Source: an uncultured Acidobacteriaceae bacterium (lineage in GTDB: Bacteria > Acidobacteriota > Terriglobia > Terriglobales > Acidobacteriaceae). Taken from it: 64,000 nucleotides of DNA. Each line of letters opens with the position of its first letter. Position 1 is the stretch's first letter. The notes below the pieces were generated by a model that had not been told where the DNA came from, did no database searches, and was given only the letters and a program-made list of their open reading frames with translations. This document shows, in pieces, positions 25,337 through 34,085 of this stretch. The translations under genes and the position numbers were made by a program. The stretch is taken from assembly GCA_963726155.1 (NCBI GenBank), contig CAVSBF010000002.1:601975-665974 (forward strand), written 5' to 3'.

Positions 25337-26674
25337 ATGTCCGATGCAATCAATCCAAGCCGGGATTCGGTGTTTCGAGAGATGCACGAGAGCGCGCGCC
25401 AGATTTTTCTCAAAGCGCTGGCCGAGGCTTCGATCGCCAAGGGATTTGCCCGGCACGTTCACTGCGAACGCGGGGTATTGCGCGTCCGAGAAGACCTTTA
25501 TGATCTGCACTCCTATTCGCGCGTAGCAGTGATTTCCATTGGCAAGGCCGGACACACGATGGTGGAAGCGCTGGCACAGCAAGTAGGTGAGTCCGCGCTG
25601 GAAGGGATTGTGGCGAGTTCGATCCAACCATCGGCGCAGGTACGCGGCTTTCGTTACTTTCGCGGCGCACATCCGATGCCGAATGCAGAATCGGTGCATG
25701 CTGCGAAGGCCATTCTAAAATTGCTGCAGGCCCAAACTGCGGCCTCACTGGTTATTTTTCTGCTGAGTGGTGGCGGATCGTCGCTGGTCGAGAGACCTAT
25801 CGATGACGAAATTTCGCTGGACGATTTGATCGCGACCTACCGGGTGCTGGTCCATTCTGGCGCACCCATTGCCGAGATGAACGCGATTCGTAAGCATCTT
25901 TCCGCGGTGAAAGGCGGACGCCTCGCGCAGGCGGCGTTTCCGGCGCAACAGGTTTCGCTGCTGGTTTCTGACGTTCCCGATAGCGCCCTCGATGCCCTGG
26001 CGTCTGGTCCAACAATGCCGGACTCAACCAGCGTGGAGGATTGCTACCGACTCGCAGAGAAGCACAGCTTCGTCGCGAAGCTTCCTCTATCCACTCGCGA
26101 GCTGTTTGAGCGCCGGGCGCTCGAAGAAACGCCAAAGTCCGACGATCCGGCATTTCACCATTCGCGTTGGTGGGCGCTGCTTTCGAACCAGACGGCTGTG
26201 GAGCAGGCGAGTGCGGCGGCCGAGCGCGCAGGTTTTACGGTCCATGTGGACAATTCATGTGACGACTGGGACTACACGCGTGCCGCCGAATATTTGTTAA
26301 AGCGGCTTCGCGAACTGAAAAGAGATTCGGAGCGCGTTTGCCTGATTTCCGGTGGAGAAGTAACGGTGAAGCTTACAAACGGCGGCGTTGGCGGACGTAA
26401 TCAGCAATTCGCGCTGGAATGTGCCGCGAAGATCGCCGGAGAGAGCATCACCGTGCTCAGCGCGGGAACGGATGGAATCGATGGGAACAGTCCAGCGGCT
26501 GGCGCAGTAGCGGATGGAAGCACGATAGAGCGCGCGAAGGCTAGAGGTCTGGATGCTACGGCAGCGCTGGAAAAATTCGACGCATATCCATTCTTTATAG
26601 CTCTGGGAGATGCGATTCAGACCGGGCCAACGGGGAATAACCTGCGGGATTTACGGATTCTGTTGTCGTATTAA
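25337..26674 (+). CDS. glycerate 2-kinase / hydroxypyruvate reductase family (DUF4147 + MOFRL)
   Basis: IGKAGHTMVEAL, LLSGGGSSLVE, ISGGEVTV ... GGVGGRNQQFAL and LSAGTDGIDG are typical of the TtuD/GckA family. Confidence 0.8.
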   Translation: MSDAINPSRDSVFREMHESARQIFLKALAEASIAKGFARHVHCERGVLRVREDLYDLHSYSRVAVISIGKAGHTMVEALAQQVGESALEGIVASSIQPSAQVRGFRYFRGAHPMPNAESVHAAKAILKLLQAQTAASLVIFLLSGGGSSLVERPIDDEISLDDLIATYRVLVHSGAPIAEMNAIRKHLSAVKGGRLAQAAFPAQQVSLLVSDVPDSALDALASGPTMPDSTSVEDCYRLAEKHSFVAKLPLSTRELFERRALEETPKSDDPAFHHSRWWALLSNQTAVEQASAAAERAGFTVHVDNSCDDWDYTRAAEYLLKRLRELKRDSERVCLISGGEVTVKLTNGGVGGRNQQFALECAAKIAGESITVLSAGTDGIDGNSPAAGAVADGSTIERAKARGLDATAALEKFDAYPFFIALGDAIQTGPTGNNLRDLRILLSY

Positions 26675-26678
26675 GAGA

Positions 26679-26721
26679 TCGGGCTTCGCCCGACGGACAG
26701 CCGAGGGCGGCTGTCCCCACA
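26679..26721. repeat. REP-like double-hairpin element, copy B (inverted relative to copy A)
   Basis: TCGGGC-TTC-GCCCGA, then GGACAGCC-GAGGGC-GGCTGTCC, then CCACA. The reverse complement aligns with 6589-6634. It sits between convergent genes. Confidence 0.6.
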
Positions 26722-26739
26722 CGATCGATTTTTTTGACT

Positions 26740-27621
26740 CTAGGCAGCTTCGCTTTTCACTTGCACTCCGGCCCACTTTTCCAACAAAGTGAGCGTCGCG
26801 GCGTAGTCGAGGTCTTGGTGACCATCTTCCGTGGCCATTTCGTATATCTCTTCCACAGTTTCGAGAGCGGGCAACTTTACGCGAGCTTCTTTGGCGGCTT
26901 CCAGAGTAAGAAGAATGTCCTTGTGCATAAGCCGCAGAGGAAAATTGGGAGTGAAGTCGCGCTGCAAGATAAACGGTCCCTTGTAATCGACAACGCCGGA
27001 GCGAACCATCGTGGCTTCAATCAAAGAGAGCAACTGCTTAGGATCGACGCCTAATTTGGTAGCAAGGGTGAGAGCCTCCGCGAAGCCCTCGAAGATCAAA
27101 GCGATTTGCAGGTTCATGGCCAGCTTGGTGGCTTGGCCTTTGCCAGTCTCACCCATGCGGAAAATTTTCTTGCCCATGGCGGCGAATAGAGGGCTAAGGC
27201 GATCGATGACGGCTGAGTCGCCACCGACCATGAAAATCAAAGTACCGTTGGCCGCTCCGATTTTCGATCCCGTCATCGGAGCGTCAACGTAGGCCACGCC
27301 CTTTTCCCGAACCTGTTCGGCAAACTTGACCGTGGCCGACGGAGAGATAGTGCTGGAGTCGACAATGATCATACCGTCCGCGAGCGACTGCTCCACTCCA
27401 TCTGTGCCGAACAACGTTTGTTTGACGGCGGTGGTATCGGAAACACAGAGCCACACAACTTCCGCACCCTGTGCGGCCGCTGCCGGCGTGGGGGCAATGC
27501 CAGCGCCTTCCACCAGTTTGCCGGGAGTGCGATTCCAAACGGTAACTTCATGGCCGGCCTTGACCAGATTCGTAGCCATGGCTTGCCCCATAATTCCCAG
27601 ACCCAAGAAGGCGACGCGCAT
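26740..27621 (-). CDS. NAD(P)-dependent 3-hydroxyisobutyrate / tartronate-semialdehyde reductase family oxidoreductase
   Basis: MRVAFLGLGIMGQAMATNLVKAGHEVTVWNRT is a Rossmann motif. 293 aa, typical of the GarR/MmsB family. Confidence 0.85.
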   Translation of the reverse strand: MRVAFLGLGIMGQAMATNLVKAGHEVTVWNRTPGKLVEGAGIAPTPAAAAQGAEVVWLCVSDTTAVKQTLFGTDGVEQSLADGMIIVDSSTISPSATVKFAEQVREKGVAYVDAPMTGSKIGAANGTLIFMVGGDSAVIDRLSPLFAAMGKKIFRMGETGKGQATKLAMNLQIALIFEGFAEALTLATKLGVDPKQLLSLIEATMVRSGVVDYKGPFILQRDFTPNFPLRLMHKDILLTLEAAKEARVKLPALETVEEIYEMATEDGHQDLDYAATLTLLEKWAGVQVKSEAA

Positions 27622-27691
27622 CTTTGAACTTCTCCTGATCGAATGAGAAACGCTAAGTGCTTTTGGATTAACGCTTCCAAATTAGAGCTTT

Positions 27692-27699
27692 CAAATTAG
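27692..27699. repeat. target-site duplication, left (CAAATTAG)
   Basis: Identical 8-mer at 32797-32804, immediately outside the two inverted repeats. Confidence 0.8.
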
Positions 27700-27725
27700 G
27701 GCAAATATATCCTTGACTCACATGT
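27700..27725. repeat. left terminal inverted repeat of the IS1595-family element
   Basis: GGCAAATATATCCTTGACTCACATGT compared with the reverse complement of 32771-32796, GGCAATTATATCCTTGCGACACATGT. Confidence 0.8.
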
Positions 27726-27741
27726 GACTTTAGGGTATATT
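27713..27741 (+). promoter_or_regulatory. sigma70-like promoter inside the left IR, predicting a leaderless transposase mRNA
   Basis: TTGACT (27713-27718), a 17-nt spacer, then TATATT (27736-27741). The transposase ATG at 27749 lies 8 nt after the -10 element and no SD is visible. Confidence 0.5.
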
Positions 27742-27748
27742 TTCATAC

Positions 27749-28735
27749 ATGGACGCCCCAAACTCTCTCCAAGAAGCCATTGTTTACTTCTCCGATCCTG
27801 ACCGCGCTTTCGAGTACGCAAAGAAACTCCGCTGGCCAGATGGAAAGGTAGTTTGCCCACGTTGCGGCAAGGCGAAGCACTCGTTCATTAAGACTCGCCG
27901 CGTGTGGTTCTGCTACGAGTGCAAGAAGCAATTCAGCTTGAAGCTTGGAACCGTTTTCGAGGATTCGGCGCTCGGTCTCGATAAGTGGATGACCGGATTT
28001 TGGCTCTTGGTCAATTGCAAGAACGGCGTGTCCAGTATGGAGATTCACCGCGCCCTTGGCATCACGCAGAAGGCGGCATGGTTTATGCTGCAACGTCTTC
28101 GGCTCGCTATCCAAGACGATTTCTTTGGTTCCAAACTCGGCGGCGGTAGCGGCGAAGTCGAAGTAGACGAATCTTTCATAGGCGGCAAGGCACGGAACAT
28201 GCACCTGAGCGAGCGCAAGCGCCGAATCACCGGAACGGGCACGAAAGACAAAACCGCAGTTATGGGCATCCTTGAACGTGGTGGAAAGATTCGCACCACA
28301 GTCGTACCGAATCGCAAGAAGCACGCATTGCAGGGCGAAGTCCGCAAGCATGTCGAAGCTGGCGCGGCACTCTACTCCGATGCGCTCATGTCGTATGAAG
28401 GACTCGCTACTGATTACGCGCACAAGGTTGTTGACCGTGCCGTGCAATATGTAGATGGTCGCGTACACACCAACGGCCTTGAAAACTTCTGGTCGCTCCT
28501 CAAGCGTGGTATCTCTGGCACGTATGTTTCGGTGGAACCGTTTCATCTTTTCCGTTACCTTGATGAGCAAACTTTCCGCTTCAACAACCGCAAACACATG
28601 AACGACGGCCAGCGCTTCGCATTGGCCATGTCCCAGATCGGCGGGAAGCGCCTCACCTATACCGAACTGACAGGCAAAGATCAATCGCCGCGCCACGAAG
28701 CGACAGGGACGCGGGAAACGCAAGTCCCGTTCTAG
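27749..28735 (+). CDS. IS1595-family DDE transposase
   Basis: N-terminal zinc ribbon (CPRCG ... CYECKKQFS), then VEVDESFIGG, TAVMGILERGGKI, LYSDALMSYEGL and HTNGLENFWSLLKRG ... typical of DDE_Tnp_IS1595. Confidence 0.92.
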   Translation: MDAPNSLQEAIVYFSDPDRAFEYAKKLRWPDGKVVCPRCGKAKHSFIKTRRVWFCYECKKQFSLKLGTVFEDSALGLDKWMTGFWLLVNCKNGVSSMEIHRALGITQKAAWFMLQRLRLAIQDDFFGSKLGGGSGEVEVDESFIGGKARNMHLSERKRRITGTGTKDKTAVMGILERGGKIRTTVVPNRKKHALQGEVRKHVEAGAALYSDALMSYEGLATDYAHKVVDRAVQYVDGRVHTNGLENFWSLLKRGISGTYVSVEPFHLFRYLDEQTFRFNNRKHMNDGQRFALAMSQIGGKRLTYTELTGKDQSPRHEATGTRETQVPF

Positions 28736-28887
28736 TCCTTGCCGCGTTTCTTCTTGGGGGCAGTGAGCTTCCTCCCCTTCTTTCTTGCTTTCCCAATTGC
28801 CGTTTTAGGCACTTTGAAAAGCGCGGCCATGCCGCGCTCAAAACGTTCTCTAGCTTCTGGGCCTTCGATATATTCAGGTTCTTTCAT
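28732..28887 (-). CDS. small Lys/Arg-rich protein (51 aa), passenger gene
   Basis: Hand-translated as MKEPEYIEGPEARERFERGMAALFKVPKTAIGKARKKGRKLTAPKKKRGKD. It lies 17 nt downstream of the membrane-protein gene and below the track cutoff. Confidence 0.45.
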   Translation of the reverse strand: MKEPEYIEGPEARERFERGMAALFKVPKTAIGKARKKGRKLTAPKKKRGKD

Positions 28888-28904
28888 CAATCAATTTACC
28901 CTTT

Positions 28905-29942
28905 TTACTGAACCCGCGTTTTTTCTGCCATGGTCACTATTAATTCAGTACATTGAACGGTCTTGCAGTGGACCTCCGTAACCATATCGCTTTCTTCAAC
29001 ATCCAACGGAGGATAAGGCTCGTCTGGATCAAGGCGAGTTGGGGCTGGACCACCTGCTACATGCTGGGCTATTAGTGCTTTCATCTCTTGCATGAGTTCG
29101 GGAAAGTGTGGGTTAGCGTCCGACAACGGCCGTGAGGTTGCGGAAATAGAAGTAACTTTCACAAGGCATTTATACGCCGACGCAGACACTTGTCTATCCA
29201 AGTCGAGATCAACGGTCGAGATTCTGTTCTCCCCAAAATGAGATTTTATAGGCTTACGAATCGTAATTGTCGCAGGCTCGCTAAGGGTAGGGAATGTGAC
29301 CGTTCGTACATAAAAATCTGGTACATGAGTTGGTTCCTCAAAACCGGAAACCCATCCCGGTTTTGGTTCTGAAACGACAACGTTTTGTGGAGGCGTTACT
29401 CTTATCTTATCCAACGGCTCTCTCGCGTCGTTTATTGAGATGACGATCTGTGCCGCATCCCCACTTGGCGTGACATTAATCACCCATTCGTGGAATAAGT
29501 CTTGGAAAAGAGGTTTGTAAACATCTGTAGTGCGTCCGTGGTTTTTCCACTTCGCGCGCGAGTGAACAACCGCCATGATGTTAGAACTCACATCAATGGA
29601 AATTTCGCACTTCTTCGGAAAACACCAAGCATTGTCCCCTCGCTTGATATTGGTGGCTGTTATTAGCAGCGTACACACTATAATCGCAGCAATTATCGCT
29701 GCAAAACGAAGAAATCTTGATGTAGTTTGCCATTCGCATATTTTTGCGACGGCGATTATTCCAACGGCGACCCACGCCGCAACTGCGATGCAGTAAATTT
29801 CGAGGTCTAGCATGAGGCCACCAAATCCGAGCAGGCCCGTGACCTCGAAGCCAACGACCACTTTGGACGAAAAACCACTCCTCCGGACAATCCGATTGTT
29901 GAAATCCTTGAAAGCGTTCGCAAGCGAACGGAACATAGCCAT
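28905..29942 (-). CDS. orphan membrane-anchored protein (passenger gene)
   Basis: The ATG at 29942 is preceded by AGGAAG. About three N-terminal TM helices are followed by a soluble domain of roughly 230 aa with no motif recognised. The gene is visibly more AT-rich than the flanking chromosome. The track ORF extends to 30425 only as antisense read-through of the IS110 gene. Confidence 0.6.
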   Translation of the reverse strand: MAMFRSLANAFKDFNNRIVRRSGFSSKVVVGFEVTGLLGFGGLMLDLEIYCIAVAAWVAVGIIAVAKICEWQTTSRFLRFAAIIAAIIVCTLLITATNIKRGDNAWCFPKKCEISIDVSSNIMAVVHSRAKWKNHGRTTDVYKPLFQDLFHEWVINVTPSGDAAQIVISINDAREPLDKIRVTPPQNVVVSEPKPGWVSGFEEPTHVPDFYVRTVTFPTLSEPATITIRKPIKSHFGENRISTVDLDLDRQVSASAYKCLVKVTSISATSRPLSDANPHFPELMQEMKALIAQHVAGGPAPTRLDPDEPYPPLDVEESDMVTEVHCKTVQCTELIVTMAEKTRVQ

Positions 29943-29960
29943 AGGATTGTCTTCCTGCAG

Positions 29961-31377
29961 AAAGATGGGATGAGAAGGCGCCAGCGTGCGTGGTAGAACG
30001 CTGGCTAGGAGGATTCCCAAATGGCAAAGAATGGAACGTTGGCTAAGAGCCAGGAGCTGCAACCAAGTTTTCAAACAACAACAGAGCAGATTACGATTGG
30101 CATCGATCTCGGAGATCGCTTCAGCCACTGCTGTGTCCTTGGACCCGATGGAAGAGTACTGACCGAGGGTCGTCTGCGATCTATACCTGAGACGATGGCC
30201 CGTCATTTTCAAGATATTCCACCTTCGCGTATCGCCATCGAGGTGGGCACGCACTCCCGGTGGGTGAGTCAACTGTTGGGGCAGTGGGGCCACGAGGTGA
30301 TCGTGGCCAACCCGCGAAATCTTCGAATGATTGCAGACAGCATTCGCAAGTCGGACCAGGTTGACGCGCACATGCTTGCCAGGCTCGCTCGTGTCGATCC
30401 GAAACTGCTCTCGCCGATCGTGCATCGCAAACAGGAAAGCTACCCTGACCTCATCCAGTTGAAGGCCCGCGATCTCTTGGTCAAGAACAGAACACGACTC
30501 ATGAATGCCGTGCGCGGCGTTTTGAAGTCCACCGGATTGCGTGTTCCTCCCTCGGGGACATCTTGCTTTCCGAGCAAGGCAGCGATGTGCATTCCTGATG
30601 AGCTGAAGCTGAGCTTGACTCCGCTGCTGGAGACGATTTCACATCTGAACAAGCAAATTTATTCTTTGGACAAGGCAATTGAAAGCACCGCACAAAATCG
30701 CTATCCAGAAACTAATCGGCTCCGCCAGATAAGCGGAGTGGGATCGATCACAGCCCTTCAGTACGTCCTTACTATAGGAGATCCCGGCCGCTTCGTTCAT
30801 TCGAGAGATGTCCCTGCATATCTTGGGCTGACACCACGTCGCCACCAATCCGGCTCGGTCGAGCAACAACTCAGGATCAGCAAGGCCGGCAACAAACAGC
30901 TCCGCTCCCTGCTGGTTCAGTGCGCGCAATATCTATTGGGACGTTTTGGACCGGATAGTGACCTCAAACGCTGGGGCACTCGAATGTTCGAACGGGGCGG
31001 AAAAAACAGCAAGAAACGAGCCATTGTGGCAGTAGCCCGGAAACTAGCGGTTCTTCTTCACCGACTGTGGGTTACCGGGGATACCTACCATCCTCTTTAT
31101 AACGTCGCAACCAGTTCCGTCACCCCCTGATGCTCTTGAGGTGTCTCAACGTTGCCAATGTGATTGACCGTTCCGATGATGTTGCAACCCCGGAGGAATT
31201 TGTAGAGATACCGTGTTCACGGTGACTGCGTGTTTTTTCCCGGGCCTTCGAGGCCGACAGAAAGATTGCAGCACCAATCTGATACTGAGAACCCCAATGT
31301 GCACCCGGCCTCCACAAGAGCCGAATAAGTGCGAATGGAAGCGCGGCGATCAGTTCAACACGGAATCGACCGTTCGC
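29961..31377 (+). mobile_element. IS110-family insertion sequence nested in the IS1595-family element (boundaries approximate)
   Basis: A complete DEDD transposase gene lies between the two minus-strand passenger genes. The boundaries are only bracketed by the neighbouring gene start/RBS (29942-29956) and stop (31378). Confidence 0.55.
30021..31130 (+). CDS. IS110-family (DEDD) transposase/recombinase
   Basis: ITIGIDLGDRFSH, RIAIEVGTHS and KSDQVDAHMLARLA form the DEDD N-terminal domain. ISGVGSITALQYVLTIGDPGRF ... YLGLTPRRHQSG ... ISKAGNKQLR is the Transposase_20 C-terminal domain. SD AGGAGG lies upstream. Confidence 0.92.
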   Translation: MAKNGTLAKSQELQPSFQTTTEQITIGIDLGDRFSHCCVLGPDGRVLTEGRLRSIPETMARHFQDIPPSRIAIEVGTHSRWVSQLLGQWGHEVIVANPRNLRMIADSIRKSDQVDAHMLARLARVDPKLLSPIVHRKQESYPDLIQLKARDLLVKNRTRLMNAVRGVLKSTGLRVPPSGTSCFPSKAAMCIPDELKLSLTPLLETISHLNKQIYSLDKAIESTAQNRYPETNRLRQISGVGSITALQYVLTIGDPGRFVHSRDVPAYLGLTPRRHQSGSVEQQLRISKAGNKQLRSLLVQCAQYLLGRFGPDSDLKRWGTRMFERGGKNSKKRAIVAVARKLAVLLHRLWVTGDTYHPLYNVATSSVTP

Positions 31378-32376
31378 TTAGGGTAGCGAAGTCGTTGGAT
31401 GCGTCGGCTCTTTGACAAGTGCAAGCCACTTGGTTGCAAGTTGATGCGACGGCAGCCAGCCAGACGCAATCATGTCTGCCGGAGCGGCACGTCCGACCTG
31501 CTGAATGCTTGCGCCACACGCATCCCAAGTCAGTGTGCCCCAGTCGTCGTGTACCTCCGACGGGCACGTGCGAATGTATCCCACCCAGCCGCGGCTATCG
31601 TCGATCTTGCGTAACGGCTTCGTTGGGGACGGCTGGCGCAGTTTGATGATCTGGTCGAGCCACGCGAGTATCAGAGATTTTGCATTGATGATGCAGCAGT
31701 GTGGCGTCTTATTCTGGACGAGGAATGCCCAAGGAGCACCACGATCTCGATACTGATGAAAGTAGTTGTAAGGGCGTTGGGTACCGGAGATCTTGTCTGC
31801 GCCCCCCGCCAAAATGAGTTCAGGAACGGAGATGGCGTCGAGGGAAAGGTGCACGTTGTCGATTCCGACCGGATCGTAGTGACCGGGATCGGTGGGAATG
31901 GATGCCACGACGCGATCAGGCGCGTAACCGACAAAGTGAGCAAACAGAGCACCCGTACCGGAAAAACCGAGCAGAATCAGCTTCGCGGAAGACAGTTCGG
32001 CATGGCCTGACTGATGGGCGAACTGGTCCAGAGCTGTAAAGAGGGCGCGGCCAACACCATGCGTCGGATCCATGTCCATCTCTTTCGGTCCGCCAGGAGC
32101 ATTCTTTGCGGGGCACTGGTGCGGCATCATCAGTGCGAGATCATTTCGCCGCGCAAAAGCGACGACATCGGGATCGGAATAAAACTTCATAATGTCCTCC
32201 CCCCGGTCGAAGGTCACCCAAATAGCTCGAACTGCGCGCCGCCCAGCAGGCAAAGTAAGGTCATAGTGACAGGGATCAGCGAACGTCTCGCTCGCCAGCG
32301 GGGCAACGATGGTTTCGAACGACTGCCCATGGGCAAGCGAGGCTAGGGCCATCAATGCGATCAAAATCCAGCGCAC
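31378..32376 (-). CDS. secreted alpha/beta-fold hydrolase (passenger gene)
   Basis: The GTG at 32376 is preceded by AGGAGA and gives the signal peptide (M)RWILIALMALASLAHGQ. GFSGTG is a G-x-S-x-G nucleophile elbow. The track ORF extends upstream to 32592. Confidence 0.6.
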   Translation of the reverse strand: MRWILIALMALASLAHGQSFETIVAPLASETFADPCHYDLTLPAGRRAVRAIWVTFDRGEDIMKFYSDPDVVAFARRNDLALMMPHQCPAKNAPGGPKEMDMDPTHGVGRALFTALDQFAHQSGHAELSSAKLILLGFSGTGALFAHFVGYAPDRVVASIPTDPGHYDPVGIDNVHLSLDAISVPELILAGGADKISGTQRPYNYFHQYRDRGAPWAFLVQNKTPHCCIINAKSLILAWLDQIIKLRQPSPTKPLRKIDDSRGWVGYIRTCPSEVHDDWGTLTWDACGASIQQVGRAAPADMIASGWLPSHQLATKWLALVKEPTHPTTSLP

Positions 32377-32770
32377 CAGTCTCTCTCCTGTCAAAGCCGA
32401 AGATCTGATTGTAAAGACTTTCCCTCGGATCGGTTCGTTCGTCTTTTTTTTCAAGTCCCGAAAGGGAATGGCCTCCGCCCATGTCTTCCTGCCTTCGTTT
32501 TGCTCCGAATCATGCAGACGGGCAAGGAACCCGTCAAGGTTGCCCTTCGGCTCGCTCCGCTCGACCTTGACTGAACCCTTGCCCGTCTGCACTCACCCTC
32601 TCCGCTAGAAAACGAAGGCACACAATCGAAGCCCAAAACCAAAAACTTCGGTTGACATCACAGCGCCTTCTCATGGAAGGGAAAGACAATGCCAATAATT
32701 GCGAAAATGGAAGAGCCAATAACGGCGTACTCGTTGTCAGACATGGGCTACCCCATATTGACAGAATCCT

Positions 32771-32796
32771 ACATGTGTCGCAAGGATATAATTGCC
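32771..32796. repeat. right terminal inverted repeat of the IS1595-family element
   Basis: See the left IR entry; 22/26 matches. Confidence 0.8.
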
Positions 32797-32804
32797 CAAA
32801 TTAG
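32797..32804. repeat. target-site duplication, right (CAAATTAG)
   Basis: Identical to 27692-27699. Confidence 0.8.
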
Positions 32805-32982
32805 ATATGAGTGGCGGGATTAAGGTCAAGCTAAGTCGCGCGGTTTGGTTGGCGGAGAACCGCAAATCGCTCAGCTTTTATTAAGAGGAATCCCAGAAAA
32901 TACGCCCCTTTCCTCGCCGCCTGGACTAAAATGGAGCGAGCCGCTCCCTGCTTTCATCCAATAGGCAGGCCAGCCCCCCGGG

Positions 32983-33879
32983 ATGATTAAGGCAACGCTT
33001 CGAAATCCGGCCCTCCGCAAGCGCGCGTCACAGTTCGGGCGATTGGTGCGTAATTCCGCCGTAACCCCCTTATGCGGCGAAACTCACAAGCCTCGACTTG
33101 TTGCGAATGGGGAACTGGGGATCACTTTCATCGGGCATTCGAGCTTTTTCCTGCAGATGGGCGGTCAAAATATAACCATCGATCCCAACTTCGCGCGCTG
33201 GTTGTTTGTGCTGAAGCGCCTGCGGCGTCCCGGGGTTCGGGTGCGCGATTTACCGGCGATCGATCTGGTGCTGGTGACGCACGCCCATTTTGATCATCTG
33301 CACCGGCCATCATTGCGAGCGATTGTGCACAACAACCTGCGAGTGCGGGGAACTGCTCCAGCCATCATTATTCCGAGCCACGTCACCGACCTGGTTTCCG
33401 ATCTGGGATTCTCCGAGATCATAGAACTCGACTGGTGGGACACTACGCGGCACGGCAATTTGTCGGTGACCCACGTCCCTTCCCGGCATTGGGGAGCGCG
33501 GATTCTGAAGGATTCGCATCGCGGTTACGGCGGCTATGTTCTGAAGGCGGGGAAGCACTCGGTTTATCACGCCGGCGATACTGCTTATTTTGCGGGCTTC
33601 CGCGAGATCGGACGACGTCTGGCGCCTGAGTTGGCGCTGCTTCCGATTGGCGCCTACAATCCCGCGACGTTTCGCAATGTGCATACCAACCCGGCCGATG
33701 CGACGCATGCCTTCCTCGACTTAAAATCGCGCTGGATGGTGCCGATGCACTACGGAACCTTCCGCCTATCGCACGAGCCGGTCGAGGAGCCGCTGCAATT
33801 GCTGGAAAAGGAAGCGCGTGCGGCCGGGATTCAAGACCGGGTGGTGGTTCTGGAAGAGGGCGTCACGAGGTTCTTCTGA
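32983..33879 (+). CDS. MBL-fold metallo-hydrolase
   Basis: LVLVTHAHFDHL is the HxHxDH motif. YHAGDTAYF and PIGAY ... also fit the family. Confidence 0.8.
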   Translation: MIKATLRNPALRKRASQFGRLVRNSAVTPLCGETHKPRLVANGELGITFIGHSSFFLQMGGQNITIDPNFARWLFVLKRLRRPGVRVRDLPAIDLVLVTHAHFDHLHRPSLRAIVHNNLRVRGTAPAIIIPSHVTDLVSDLGFSEIIELDWWDTTRHGNLSVTHVPSRHWGARILKDSHRGYGGYVLKAGKHSVYHAGDTAYFAGFREIGRRLAPELALLPIGAYNPATFRNVHTNPADATHAFLDLKSRWMVPMHYGTFRLSHEPVEEPLQLLEKEARAAGIQDRVVVLEEGVTRFF

Positions 33880-34085
33880 TTTCATCTCGCCTGAGGCCCA
33901 GGAAGAGTTTGTGAAGCAGTGATTGGTTCAGAGCGCGGCTCTCGCCGCGCCCTTCTTGGTTCCTGCTACTTTGGTAATCTCGCAGACCCCGCTATTACAC
34001 AAGTATTACAGTGGATGGCCCGAAGCCTTGATAAGTTAGATATGTACGTTAGCGAACTTAGGACAAACGGGGACCCTCCTTGGAC

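What the first reader, a model, noticed from the sequence alone, without database searches (positions are those of the whole stretch)
27692..32804. 5.1-kb IS1595-family element with perfect 8-bp target duplication, passenger genes and a nested IS110
The ends GGCAAATATATCCTTGACTCACATGT (27700-27725) and the reverse complement of 32771-32796 match at 22/26 positions. They are flanked by identical CAAATTAG octamers. The left end encodes an IS1595 DDE transposase. The other roughly 4 kb carries three minus-strand passenger ORFs and a complete IS110-family element. The end sequence fits the ggnnatTAT terminus and 8-bp duplication I recall for the ISNwi1 subgroup, which is known to include passenger-carrying members. 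The element sits in the divergent promoter region between a garR-like gene and an MBL hydrolase gene. An intact duplication implies a relatively recent, single transposition of the whole unit. The cargo was therefore mobilised together and is the best candidate in this window for an accessory system of unknown function.
Basis: partly seen in the sequence, partly recalled or inferred. Interest (0 to 1): 0.75.

Follow-up and report, generated by a model that had tools for sequence, protein, structure and literature searches.

The report
Two nested cargo-carrying insertion sequences
The 5.1-kb insert is real, but it is two mobile elements, not one: a 2.4-kb IS1595-type element carrying unknown membrane-protein genes, split by a 2.7-kb RNA-guided IS110/IS1111-type element that brought its own esterase-like gene. 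Both kinds are already known.

Summary
The inverted repeats 27700-27725 and 32771-32796 match at 22/26. The flanking CAAATTAG octamers are a true 8-bp target duplication: seven 97.6-99.8% identical metagenome contigs carry the empty site with a single CAAATTAG.

The IS1595 element proper is 2,382 bp: transposase, a conserved 52-aa ORF and a 374-aa membrane-anchored passenger of unknown function. About 20 relatives keep the transposase and small ORF but carry different passengers, and 9 of 10 have perfect 8-bp duplications.

The "404-aa passenger" is a 332-aa secreted alpha/beta hydrolase that does not belong to the IS1595 element. It is cargo of the nested IS110-family element (2,715 bp, 29965-32679), which recurs at 99.6-100% identity in at least two other contexts. 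That element splits the 374-aa passenger gene. Three contigs carry the IS1595 element at the same site without it.

The nested element is IS1111-type: 12-bp subterminal repeats, a noncoding region downstream of the transposase, and a candidate seekRNA whose two guide segments match its preferred target CAGAAAG^GGAAAAAAC. Relatives carry different genes between the seekRNA and a conserved 189-nt right-end module.

Both elements are new members of known kinds. Interest is moderate.

The parts
27692..27699 (.). Left copy of the 8-bp target-site duplication CAAATTAG made by the IS1595-type element
   Evidence: Empty sites in L033/L034/L035/L038/L040/L045/L046 hold a single copy.
27700..27725 (+). 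Left terminal inverted repeat (IRL) of the IS1595-family transporter IS. It is followed by an internal palindrome reaching 27742.
   Evidence: 22/26 match to the right repeat. The motif is unique in the window. The same end is exact in 21 metagenome loci.
27749..28735 (+). IS1595-family DDE transposase, 328 aa, with an N-terminal zinc ribbon
   Evidence: Pfam PF12762 (8e-40) and PF12760 (7e-15). NCBIfam NF033547, 169 bits against a cut-off of 75.
28732..28887 (-). Conserved small basic ORF (about 51-52 aa, MKEPEYIEGPEARERFERGMAALFKVPK...), part of the core module of this IS lineage
   Evidence: Conserved in L009 (55 aa) and similar in the second L047 element. DNA homology of about 20 relatives extends exactly to 28887. 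No family hit.
28905..29964 (-). 3' part (residues about 23-374) of the 374-aa membrane-anchored passenger gene of the IS1595 element, cut off from its start by the nested element
   Evidence: It is uninterrupted in L036/L037/L047. 25 homologues exist, and L009 has the same three-gene layout. The AlphaFold model has pLDDT 85.7, with 4 helices plus a beta-sandwich and no structural match.
29962..29964 (.). Left copy of the AAG core shared by the target and the nested IS110/IS1111-type element
   Evidence: Comparison of the junctions with the uninterrupted copies.
29965..32679 (+). Nested IS110-family (IS1111-type) cargo-carrying element, 2,715 bp including one AAG core
   Evidence: 99.6-100% identical copies lie in other contexts: L002/L004/L005 and L003. 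It is absent from L036/L037/L047.
29970..29981 (+). Left subterminal inverted repeat ATGAGAAGGCGC
   Evidence: Perfect 12-bp reverse complement of 32663-32674.
30021..31130 (+). DEDD (IS110-family, RNA-guided) transposase, 369 aa, with the GLTPRRHQSG motif
   Evidence: Pfam PF01548 and PF02371. NCBIfam NF033542 'IS110 family RNA-guided transposase', 226 bits against a cut-off of 140.
31208..31362 (+). Candidate seekRNA / bridge-RNA core, about 155 nt and nearly invariant among 16 relatives. The T-guide is TGTTTTTTCCC (31231-31241). The B-guide is CAGAAAG (31258-31264). A donor-end match ATGGAAG lies at 31335-31341.
   Evidence: Alignments A3 and A4. Guide-to-target matches, reached by 2 of 5000 resamples. 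Guide and target change together in L020.
31378..32376 (-). Cargo of the nested element: a secreted alpha/beta hydrolase (332 aa, GTG start, signal peptide, GFSGTG nucleophile motif) with 114 bp of its upstream region (32377-32490)
   Evidence: 367 homologues, mostly 332 aa, named 'dienelactone hydrolase' by JGI. The AlphaFold model has pLDDT 89. Foldseek gives probability 1.0 for cutinase/PETase/esterase folds. Ser139, Asp194 and His226 are invariant.
32491..32679 (+). Conserved, structured 189-nt right-end module of the nested element: a long hairpin, a second hairpin, the right subterminal repeat GCGCCTTCTCAT (32663-32674) and the terminal CATGG+AAG
   Evidence: 90-95% identical in 13 relatives with unrelated cargo. 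5 covarying base pairs, with G-U pairs favouring the + strand. Folding z-score -7.3. No Rfam match.
32680..32744 (-). 5' part (start codon at 32744, residues 1 to about 22) of the interrupted 374-aa passenger gene
   Evidence: It joins in frame to 29964 in L036/L037/L047.
32771..32796 (-). Right terminal inverted repeat (IRR) of the IS1595-family element
32797..32804 (.). Right copy of the 8-bp target-site duplication CAAATTAG

Best explanation
Window 27700-32796 holds two independent mobile elements, one inside the other. The host is probably an uncultured Acidobacteriaceae or Ca. Sulfotelmatobacter-like soil bacterium.

(1) The outer element is a 2,382-bp IS1595-family transporter IS with ISNwi1-like ends. 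Its DDE transposase recognised the 26-bp terminal repeats and inserted the element into CAAATTAG, duplicating that octamer, in the intergenic region between the garR-like and MBL genes. It carries a fixed core (transposase plus a 52-aa basic ORF) and one exchangeable passenger. Here the passenger is a 374-aa protein with about four N-terminal membrane helices and a beta-sandwich domain of unknown function.

(2) The inner element is a 2,715-bp IS110-family element of the IS1111 type. Either later, or polymorphically in the population, it integrated into codons 22-24 of that passenger gene at CAGAAAG^(G/T)GAAAG, sharing an AAG core with the target. A DEDD transposase moves it. The inferred guide is a seekRNA or bridge-like RNA encoded just downstream of the transposase gene. 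One guide segment is complementary to the top strand of the preferred target (GGGAAAAAACA) and the other to the bottom strand (CAGAAAG). The window site matches the left half perfectly and the right half only in part, so it is a half-matched, off-target insertion.

The inner element carries its own cargo, a secreted alpha/beta-hydrolase gene. The cargo sits in a slot between the seekRNA and a conserved structured 189-nt right-end module. Relatives hold entirely different genes in that slot.

Shown: the boundaries, the duplication, the empty site, the nesting, whole-unit relocation, and the guide-to-target sequence matches. Inferred: that the RNA is expressed and acts as a guide, the order of the two insertions, and the activity of either transposase. 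Unknown: how cargo enters the slot, what the 189-nt module does, and what the passengers do.
For: Outer element:
- Inverted repeats and duplication.
- Seven empty-site contigs at 97.6-99.8% identity.
- L009 has the same layout (passenger, small ORF, transposase) between homologous repeats, about 2.47 kb long.
- 21 metagenome loci hold the exact end motif. Their homology covers 27692-28887 only. The elements are 1.9-2.5 kb, and 9 of 10 have perfect 8-bp duplications.
- A second related element in L047 sits in the same octamer.

Inner element:
- The identical transposase lies on 7 contigs. The 2.7-kb block is shared with different flanks.
- L036/L037/L047 lack it and read straight through the passenger gene.
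- 12-bp subterminal repeats, and T- and B-guide matches of 11 and 7 nt that overlap at the core. Only 2 of 5000 resamples do as well.
- The order, T 5' of B, is as published for IS1111 seekRNAs (PMC11187229).
- L020 has changed both guides (GTGAAAG; TGAAAAAAAC) and both flanks in step.
- CAGAAAG is the left flank at six or more distinct sites.

Cargo slot:
- Segment A (29957 to about 31365) and segment B (about 32488-32684) are conserved in 13 relatives. The variable middle ranges from 147 bp to 3.3 kb.
- The middles encode cation efflux, hydrolases, GNAT, isochorismatase, ECF sigma factor, DJ-1/AraC, AsnC, histidine kinase, phosphoesterase and MgtC proteins.

Hydrolase fold.

Precedent for cargo-bearing IS110 elements and half-match recombination: bioRxiv 10.64898/2026.08.14.744561.
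Against: - No RNA data exist, so the seekRNA rests on sequence and conservation only.
- No segment clearly complementary to the left end (AAGATGGGATGAG) was found. Donor recognition is therefore unexplained beyond ATGGAAG and the subterminal repeats.
- The transposase is 369 aa. That is longer than the 330-350 aa quoted for the IS1111 family and closer to the ISEc21-like IS110 cluster, so the subfamily assignment is not clean.
- The base next to the right junction is G in the window but T in all three uninterrupted copies. This is either a SNP or a recombination footprint that the simple AAG-core model does not predict.
- IS110-type excision is precise. The uninterrupted copies could therefore be revertants rather than ancestors, so the order of events is not proven.
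- The right flank of the L003 copy is unknown because the contig ends there.
- Only L020 provides guide-target covariation.
- Assignment to the ISNwi1 subgroup rests on a terminus consensus recalled from memory, not checked against ISfinder.
Confidence: 0.85

Rival explanations
1. One reading: a single 5.1-kb IS1595 transporter IS moved all of its content (three passenger ORFs plus a nested 1.4-kb IS110) in one recent transposition.
For: One pair of terminal repeats and one intact 8-bp duplication bracket the whole 5,097 bp, and the empty site lacks all of it.
Against: The same IS1595 element at the same site exists without the 2.7-kb block (L036, L037, L047). The block, hydrolase included, is a discrete unit found elsewhere with other flanks. 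It splits the passenger reading frame. No relative of the IS1595 element carries an IS110 or this hydrolase.
Confidence: 0.05
2. A standard IS110/IS1111 element of about 1.4 kb (29965 to about 31341, ending at the internal ATGGAAG) happens to lie next to a hydrolase gene. The hydrolase and the 189-nt module are not part of the mobile unit.
For: An ATGGAAG identical to the right terminus lies at 31335-31341, giving a canonical 1,377-bp length. ISPpu9 and the expanded IS110 loci show modular or partial circles. L048 holds a partial seekRNA region plus hydrolase without a transposase.
Against: The full block, including the hydrolase and the 189-nt module, is 99.6-100% identical in three contexts. 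Identical boundaries are seen on both sides in the window and in L002/L005, and on the left side in L003, whose contig ends at the right end of the block. Removing exactly 29965-32679 restores the passenger gene. In 13 relatives the preferred right target flank (GGAAAAAAC...) follows the 189-nt module, not the internal ATGGAAG. There is no subterminal repeat near 31341.
Confidence: 0.07
3. The conserved segments in the downstream noncoding region are not guide RNAs. Target choice is by the protein alone, and the matches to the target are coincidental low-complexity similarity (A/T runs).
For: The target is A-rich and the T-guide is a U-run, so chance matches are likelier than for random sequence. 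No Rfam family matched. No RNA evidence exists.
Against: Only 2 of 5000 first-order Markov resamples reach 11 nt on one strand plus 7 nt on the other. The two matches abut or overlap at the insertion point and lie in the published T-then-B order either side of a small hairpin. L020 changes both guides and both flanks concordantly. The 155-nt core is more conserved than the transposase gene.
Confidence: 0.1

Closest known systems
IS1595 family, ISNwi1 / 'ISNwi1+' subgroup: transporter IS (tIS) as defined by Siguier, Gagnevin and Chandler 2009 and ISfinder
   Same: DDE_Tnp_IS1595 domain with an N-terminal zinc ribbon. Terminal inverted repeats starting GGnnA(A/T)TAT. An 8-bp target duplication. 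Passenger genes inside the repeats. A size of 2.4 kb, within the recalled 1.75-4.75 kb range. tIS are stated to be restricted to the IS1595 and IS66 families (TnCentral preprint).
   Different: The transposase is at most 39% identical to any plasmid-borne IS1595 transposase. The lineage has a fixed extra 52-aa ORF. Its single passenger slot holds unrelated membrane-anchored proteins that match no family. The subgroup could not be checked against ISfinder.
IS1111-family elements with seekRNA (ISEc11, ISKpn4, ISPa11; Siddiquee et al. 2024, PMC11187229)
   Same: DEDD transposase with the GL-P----SG motif. Subterminal inverted repeats. A long noncoding region downstream of the transposase gene. 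Two short RNA segments matching the top and bottom target strands, T 5' of B, overlapping in the target. Site-specific insertion without a conventional duplication.
   Different: 2.7 kb instead of about 1.3-1.5 kb. A cargo gene and a conserved 189-nt structured module lie between the seekRNA and the right end. The transposase is 369 aa against 330-350 aa. RNA expression is untested.
IS621 / IS110 bridge-RNA recombinases (Durrant et al. 2024, PMC11208160)
   Same: RNA-guided DEDD recombinase. A short core shared by donor and target. Guide segments placed either side of a small hairpin, as in a target-binding loop.
   Different: The RNA is 3' of the gene, not 5'. The core is AAG rather than CT. 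No convincing donor-binding loop was identified.
Expanded, cargo-bearing IS110 loci (Hu, Xie, Yang and Rubin, bioRxiv 10.64898/2026.08.14.744561, Aug 2026)
   Same: DNA acquired downstream of a conserved transposase module. The identical body is relocated between contexts. Insertions occur at half-matched targets. Partial fragments occur (L048). Different cargo sits at one conserved chromosomal site.
   Different: The host is an environmental Acidobacteriota lineage and the cargo is ordinary metabolic or regulatory genes, not plasmid or resistance DNA. The cargo always lies between the same two boundaries (end of the seekRNA and start of the 189-nt module). The first cargo gene is always convergent with the transposase gene.
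ISPpu9 modular transposition (Pares-Guillen et al. 2025, PMC12288879)
   Same: An IS110-family element with an extra RNA-gene module downstream of the transposase gene, and alternative sub-element units.
   Different: No sequence relationship was tested. Here the extra modules are protein-coding cargo plus a structured right end. Circles were not observed.

Membership tests
IS1595 family | Transposase with the DDE_Tnp_IS1595 (ISXO2-like) catalytic domain and an N-terminal zinc ribbon | tested here: met
   PF12762 at 8.2e-40, full length 3-153 of 153. PF12760 at 6.9e-15. NF033547 at 169 bits against a cut-off of 75.
IS1595 family | Terminal inverted repeats bounding the element | tested here: met
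   22/26 match, unique in the window. Homologous repeats bound relatives L009, the second L047 element and L049-L069.
IS1595 family | 8-bp direct target duplication | tested here: met
   CAAATTAG on both sides, one copy in seven empty sites. 9 of 10 relatives have perfect 8-bp duplications.
ISNwi1 subgroup of IS1595 | Termini of the form ggnnatTAT (criterion recalled from ISfinder, not verifiable with these tools) | tested here: met
   The right end GGCAATTAT fits exactly. The left end GGCAAATAT differs at one lower-case position. The criterion itself rests on memory.
ISNwi1 subgroup of IS1595 | Transposase clusters with ISNwi1-group transposases (DDEK signature and conserved downstream residues) | not testable with these tools
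   No ISfinder or reference ISNwi1 sequence is available. The best annotated plasmid hits are only 'IS1595 family transposase' at 39% identity or less.
Transporter IS (tIS) | Non-transposition passenger gene(s) inside a single pair of IS ends, moving with the IS | tested here: met
   The 374-aa gene lies within the repeats. L009 has the same layout with a 51%-identical passenger. Relatives carry other passengers within repeats plus a duplication.
IS110 family | DEDD (RuvC-like) N-terminal domain plus the PF02371 C-terminal domain with a conserved SG | tested here: met
   PF01548 at 3.9e-18 and PF02371 at 1.1e-22. NF033542 at 226 bits against a cut-off of 140. GLTPRRHQSG is present in the translation.
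IS110 family | No terminal inverted repeats or classical duplication; precise site-specific insertion with a short core shared by donor and target | tested here: met
   The AAG core is present at both junctions and once in the uninterrupted copies. The left flank CAGAAAG recurs at six or more distinct sites.
IS1111 type | Subterminal inverted repeats of appreciable length | tested here: met
   ATGAGAAGGCGC at 29970-29981 against GCGCCTTCTCAT at 32663-32674, 12/12.
IS1111 type | Long noncoding region downstream of the transposase gene, encoding a seekRNA with a top-strand match 5' of a bottom-strand match | tested here: met
   The left end is only 56 bp. The conserved 155-nt core lies at 31208-31362. 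The T-guide is at 31231-31241 and the B-guide at 31258-31264. The criterion is from PMC11187229. Met by sequence only.
IS1111 type | Transposase of 330-350 aa, related over its full length to the IS1111 transposase | tested here: inconclusive
   The length is 369 aa, within the 345-385 aa range quoted for the ISEc21-like IS110 cluster. No phylogeny against reference transposases was possible.
IS110/IS1111 RNA-guided transposition | The RNA is transcribed, binds the transposase and is required for transposition; a circular intermediate forms | not testable with these tools
   This needs RNA sequencing, purification of the protein-RNA complex, or junction PCR.
Cargo-bearing (expanded) IS110 elements | An identical element body including cargo, found in distinct genomic contexts with matching empty or uninterrupted sites | tested here: met
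   The window, L002/L004/L005 and L003 share the body at 99.6-100% identity. The uninterrupted target is in L036/L037/L047.

The most novel reading that the evidence does not exclude
The IS1111-type lineage may have a dedicated cargo slot, bounded on one side by the 3' end of the seekRNA and on the other by a conserved structured 189-nt right-end module. Into this slot single genes or small operons would be captured or exchanged site-specifically by the element's own RNA-guided recombinase, for example through half-site recombination. That would be an integron-like cassette platform built on a bridge or seek recombinase, with the 189-nt module acting as the recombination or recognition site. 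Separately, the IS1595 transporter-IS lineage may spread a set of unrelated membrane-anchored proteins that serve one common, still unknown role, such as exclusion or defence.
Probability: 0.12. Interest if true: 0.8.

Novelty: new member of a known kind. Interest (0 to 1): 0.42.

Why it matters
The locus is a clean natural record of nested transposition, because all three population states are recovered: the empty site, the IS1595 element alone, and the IS1595 element with the IS110-type element inside it. Boundaries, duplication and core can therefore be read directly rather than inferred.

It extends passenger-carrying IS1595 elements to soil Acidobacteriota. It also shows a lineage in which the transposase and a 52-aa ORF are fixed while one membrane-protein passenger is swapped.

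The nested element is an environmental example of the cargo-bearing, RNA-guided IS110/IS1111 elements described only in 2024-2026. It has readable guide-target pairs, a recent insertion at a half-matched site, and a sharply bounded cargo slot holding many different genes. This gives concrete sequences with which to test how bridge or seek recombinases tolerate half-matches and acquire cargo.

For annotating this window, the practical point is that the hydrolase is mobile-element cargo, the 374-aa gene is disrupted, and neither amounts to an 'accessory system' with an identifiable function.

Tried and rejected
- **Rfam.** A search of 26500-34000 at E<=1 found no family for either noncoding module.
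- **Passenger families.** Pfam, NCBIfam and PADLOC found nothing for the 374-aa passenger, the 52-aa ORF, the hydrolase or the L047 274-aa passenger. Pfam found nothing for nine other passengers of the IS1595 lineage.
- **Structure of the 374-aa passenger.** Foldseek of the confident model against PDB and the viral BFVD library gave only generic beta-sandwich noise, with TM below 0.25.
- **Hydrolase sequence search.** A search against PDB sequences found nothing. Only the fold search worked.
- **Donor guide.** No guide complementary to the left end (AAGATGGGATGAG) was found in either noncoding module. The internal loop of the 189-nt module varies between elements that share the same ends and the same target, so I rejected it as a guide loop.
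- **Junction promoter.** By eye, I looked for a promoter formed at the circle junction from the TTGACA at 32651-32656. No acceptable -10 lies at the right spacing, so I make no claim.
- **First boundary estimate.** My first estimate of the nested unit (29958-32681, 2,724 bp, from identity with L002) was wrong by 9 bp. CAGAAAG and GG belong to the conserved target. The uninterrupted copies corrected this.
- **Conserved target site.** An empty copy of the conserved chromosomal target was searched for in the fetched loci, with no hit.
- **Native hydrolase locus.** P0026 (88% identical) was looked up as a possible native locus. It turned out to be a decayed fragment of the same element type, so the source of the cargo remains unknown.
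- **Plasmid search.** tblastn against plasmids gave no subgroup names.
- **Literature.** Papers held in the library do not contain the ISNwi1 terminus table.

Full report
**1. The observation**

The sequence is as described. The left end GGCAAATATATCCTTGACTCACATGT (27700-27725) and the reverse complement of 32771-32796 (GGCAATTATATCCTTGCGACACATGT) agree at 22 of 26 positions. The first 16 nt occur only at these two places in the 64-kb window, against 0.02 expected by chance. CAAATTAG flanks both ends (27692-27699 and 32797-32804). A third copy lies 14 bp upstream, at 27678-27685. Pfam and NCBIfam confirm an IS1595 transposase (27749-28735) and an IS110-family transposase (30021-31130). They also confirm the garR-like dehydrogenase and MBL-fold hydrolase as neighbours.

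**2. The empty site**

I looked up contigs that encode exactly the same flanking proteins. This gave seven metagenome contigs, 97.6-99.8% identical to the flanks, in which the two genes are 256 bp apart. Window homology stops at 27699 and resumes at 32797, overlapping by 8 bp. The sequence there reads ...GCTTCCAAATTAGAGCTTTCAAATTAGATATGAG.... So 27700-32796 (5,097 bp) is an insertion, and the octamer is a true 8-bp target duplication.

**3. The insert is two elements**

The identical IS110 transposase lies on seven other contigs. Comparing them with the window showed a block of about 2.7 kb shared at 99.6-100% identity but with different flanks. In L002/L004/L005 the flanks are a DUF6632 gene on one side and a methyltransferase and an AraC regulator on the other. 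In L003 the block lies next to brxA and brxB.

Three contigs (L036, L037, L047) carry the IS1595 element at the same chromosomal site without this block. They read ...CTTCCTGCAGAAAGTGAAAGACAATG... straight through. The inserted DNA is therefore 29965-32679, which is 2,715 bp counting one copy of an AAG core shared with the target. It splits a 374-aa ORF whose start codon is at 32744 and whose stop is at 28905. Without the block, the IS1595 element is 2,382 bp.

A contig from the same sample as L002 breaks exactly at the left end of the block (L001). That is what is expected of a repeat.

**4. The outer element**

The element is a transporter IS of the IS1595 family. Locus L009 has the same three genes between homologous repeats (GGGAAATATATACTTG... 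and GGCGAATATATACTTG...), about 2.47 kb apart: a 51%-identical passenger, a 55-aa ORF and a convergent IS1595 transposase.

One scan of public metagenomes with the degenerate 26-nt end found 21 loci. Their DNA homology to the window covers 27692-28887 only, at 73-87% identity. That span is the left repeat, the transposase gene and the small ORF.

- Ten of these loci contain both ends. The elements are 1.9-2.5 kb.
- Nine of the ten have perfect 8-bp duplications, all beginning with C and mostly AT-rich and near-palindromic: CCAATTAG, CAGATTAG, CTAATTAG, CTAATTTG and others.
- Their passengers differ. One is a distant homologue of the window's protein (27% identity, 2e-11). Two share a 222-aa membrane protein. 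Five share a transmembrane helix followed by a QRPW motif.
- None of nine passengers scanned matches a Pfam family above its cut-off.

In L047 a second, related element sits in the right-hand copy of the duplication and is again flanked by CAAATTAG. That suggests a target preference for this octamer.

The window's passenger models confidently (pLDDT 85.7) as about four helices followed by a beta-sandwich. It has no meaningful structural neighbour in PDB or BFVD and no PADLOC or NCBIfam hit. G+C across it is 46-49%, against 55-59% in the flanks.

The subgroup assignment to ISNwi1 rests on a terminus pattern I recall, ggnnatTAT. The ends fit it, but I could not check it. The held literature confirms only that transporter ISs are known from the IS1595 and IS66 families.

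**5. The inner element**

A scan of one genome per species with the transposase returned 23 loci. Most are from Acidobacteriaceae, Ca. Sulfotelmatobacter or Terriglobales metagenome-assembled genomes. Thirteen of them share two segments with the window:

- Segment A (29957 to about 31365) holds the left end, the transposase gene and about 235 bp downstream.
- Segment B (about 32488-32684) is the right end.

Between the two lies a variable middle of 147 bp (L020) to 3.3 kb. The middles encode unrelated ordinary genes: cation efflux, several alpha/beta hydrolases, GNAT, isochorismatase, an ECF sigma factor, DJ-1/PfpI with an AraC regulator, AsnC, a hybrid histidine kinase, a phosphoesterase and MgtC. 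In every locus with cargo ORFs, the gene next to segment A runs convergent with the transposase gene.

In the window the middle is a hydrolase gene with 114 bp of its upstream region. Homologues show the real protein is 332 aa with a GTG start and a signal peptide. Its model (pLDDT 89) is an alpha/beta hydrolase closest to cutinases, PETases, esterases and the DPP-IV catalytic domain. Ser139 (in GFSGTG), Asp194 and His226 are invariant.

**6. Type and mechanism of the inner element**

Several features point to the IS1111 type described by Siddiquee et al..

- The ends carry a perfect 12-bp subterminal inverted repeat, ATGAGAAGGCGC and GCGCCTTCTCAT.
- The left end is only 56 bp.
- The long noncoding region lies downstream of the transposase gene.

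Within segment A, a core of about 155 nt (31208-31362) is almost invariant in 16 relatives.

With the corrected boundaries, the flanks of the copies reveal the target.

- The left flank is (G)CAGAAAG at the window, L002, L013, L014, L017 and the recurrent chromosomal site.
- The right flank is GGAAAAAACATG at that recurrent site, which is occupied in L003, L011, L012 and L016. L019 and L021 show the same or a closely similar right flank.

The core contains two matching segments.

- TGTTTTTTCCC (31231-31241) is the reverse complement of GGGAAAAAACA.
- CAGAAAG (31258-31264) lies 17 nt downstream, beyond a small GGCC-TTCGA-GGCC hairpin.
- The two matches meet at the last base of the core.
- They lie in the published order, top-strand match 5' of bottom-strand match.
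- Only 2 of 5000 composition-preserving resamples do as well.

In the most diverged relative, L020, both segments differ (GTGAAAG; reverse complement TGAAAAAAAC). So do both of its flanks (GGTGAAAG and AAAAAAAC).

I therefore read the core as a seekRNA or bridge-like guide RNA. No RNA data exist to confirm it. ATGGAAG (31335-31341) repeats the right terminus plus core and may take part in donor recognition. I found no segment complementary to the left end.

The window's target (GGGAAAGACAA) and L002's (GGGGGTGAACA) match the right-hand guide only partly, while the left half is perfect. This agrees with the half-match recombination reported for natural IS110 elements.

**7. The right-end module**

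Segment B (32491-32679) starts at the same nucleotide in all 14 aligned sequences, the window and 13 relatives. It folds into a long hairpin with five covarying pairs. G-U pairs favour the transposase strand. The folding z-score is -7.3. The module has no Rfam match.

Its internal loop varies between elements that share the same ends and target, so it is unlikely to hold guides. Its role is open. It could serve in end recognition, form part of a longer guide RNA, or act as an insulator.

**8. Comparison with the known and verdict**

Passenger-carrying IS1595 elements have been known since 2009. seekRNA- and bridge-RNA-guided IS110/IS1111 elements have been known since 2024. An August 2026 preprint shows that natural IS110 elements commonly carry cargo acquired downstream of the transposase module, move as whole units when small, use half-matches, and leave partial fragments. 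L048 is such a fragment.

Both elements here are therefore new members of known kinds. Three features are new in detail:

- the Acidobacteriota host range;
- the fixed 52-aa ORF and swappable membrane-protein passenger of the IS1595 lineage;
- the sharply bounded cargo slot and conserved right-end module of the IS1111-type lineage.

One passenger is disrupted and of unknown function. The other gene is a lone esterase-like hydrolase that belongs to a different element.

**9. Open points**

- The base after the right junction is G in the window but T in all three uninterrupted copies. It may be a strain SNP, which would make the window's ancestral target a better guide match. It may instead be a footprint of strand exchange.
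- The order of the two insertions is inferred, because IS110-type excision is precise.
- The host taxon is inferred from related loci only.

Noticed in passing
window 27678-27685: A third, native CAAATTAG lies 6 bp upstream of the left duplication copy (CCAAATTAGAGCTTTCAAATTAG). It is present in the empty sites too, so the target region already held a tandem pair of the preferred octamer.
   Followed up: partly
L047:2445-4530 (ERZ25039592 contig_3207): A second, related IS1595-type transporter IS sits in the right-hand duplication copy of the first element. Its repeats are GGCAAGAATATACTTG... and GGCAATAATATACTTG.... It carries a 274-aa membrane passenger, a small basic ORF and a transposase in the opposite orientation. 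It is again flanked by CAAATTAG. This makes a tandem of two elements with three copies of the octamer, and implies target preference or attraction to an existing end.
   Followed up: partly
window 32680 versus L036:161, L037 and L047: The base immediately after the right end of the nested element is G in the window (GGAAAG) but T in all three uninterrupted copies (TGAAAG). In the passenger protein this is Pro against His at residue 22. It may be a strain SNP or a recombination footprint.
   Followed up: no
window 29948-29957 and 32482-32491; also 32460-32468: TGTCTTCCTG occurs twice: immediately left of the target half-site CAGAAAG, and immediately before the conserved right-end module at the cargo boundary. 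GAAAGGGAA, identical to the target across the insertion point, lies 22 bp upstream of that boundary. Relatives have a pyrimidine-rich ...CCTT just before the module. These may be traces of how the cargo was captured, or chance.
   Followed up: no
L003, L011, L012, L016, L021 (left flank ...GGAAGAAACAAGCCGGAAACGGCAGAAAG, right flank GGAAAAAACATGAAATTAGAAGAAG): The preferred target of the IS1111-type lineage is the ribosome-binding-site and start-codon region of a conserved gene (MKLEEVN...), just downstream of a terminator-like hairpin. In L003 it lies next to brxA and brxB. Different genomes hold elements with different cargo at this same site. L002's off-target site, and on the + strand the window's, also look like a ribosome-binding site followed by ATG.
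   Followed up: partly
L048:953-2280 (ERZ1756281 NODE_24509): A decayed fragment of the same element type: the guide-RNA region from the equivalent of window 31177, an 88%-identical hydrolase gene and only the first 14 nt of the right-end module. There is no transposase gene, and an unrelated 302-aa ORF sits in its place.
   Followed up: partly
L010-L029 cargo regions (coordinates): In every relative with cargo, the gene adjacent to the guide-RNA region is on the strand opposite to the transposase gene (convergent). This suggests selection against read-through, or a polarity in the capture process.
   Followed up: no
window 27703-27742: The left repeat of the IS1595 element overlaps a 23-nt-arm palindrome (AAATATATCCTTGACTCACATGT / ACATGTGACTTTAGGGTATATTT) just upstream of the transposase start codon. 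It may be a regulatory or transposase-binding hairpin.
   Followed up: no
L049, L050, L052, L053, L059 (passenger ORFs on the transposase strand): Five relatives of the IS1595 element carry passengers that share a transmembrane helix followed by a (D)QRPW(I/L) motif and a beta-rich domain. This is a family with no Pfam match, distinct from the window's passenger.
   Followed up: partly
window 32651-32656: A consensus -35 hexamer TTGACA lies 23 bp inside the right end of the nested element, pointing outward, and is conserved in nearly all relatives. No suitable -10 was seen at the circle junction or in the flank.
   Followed up: no
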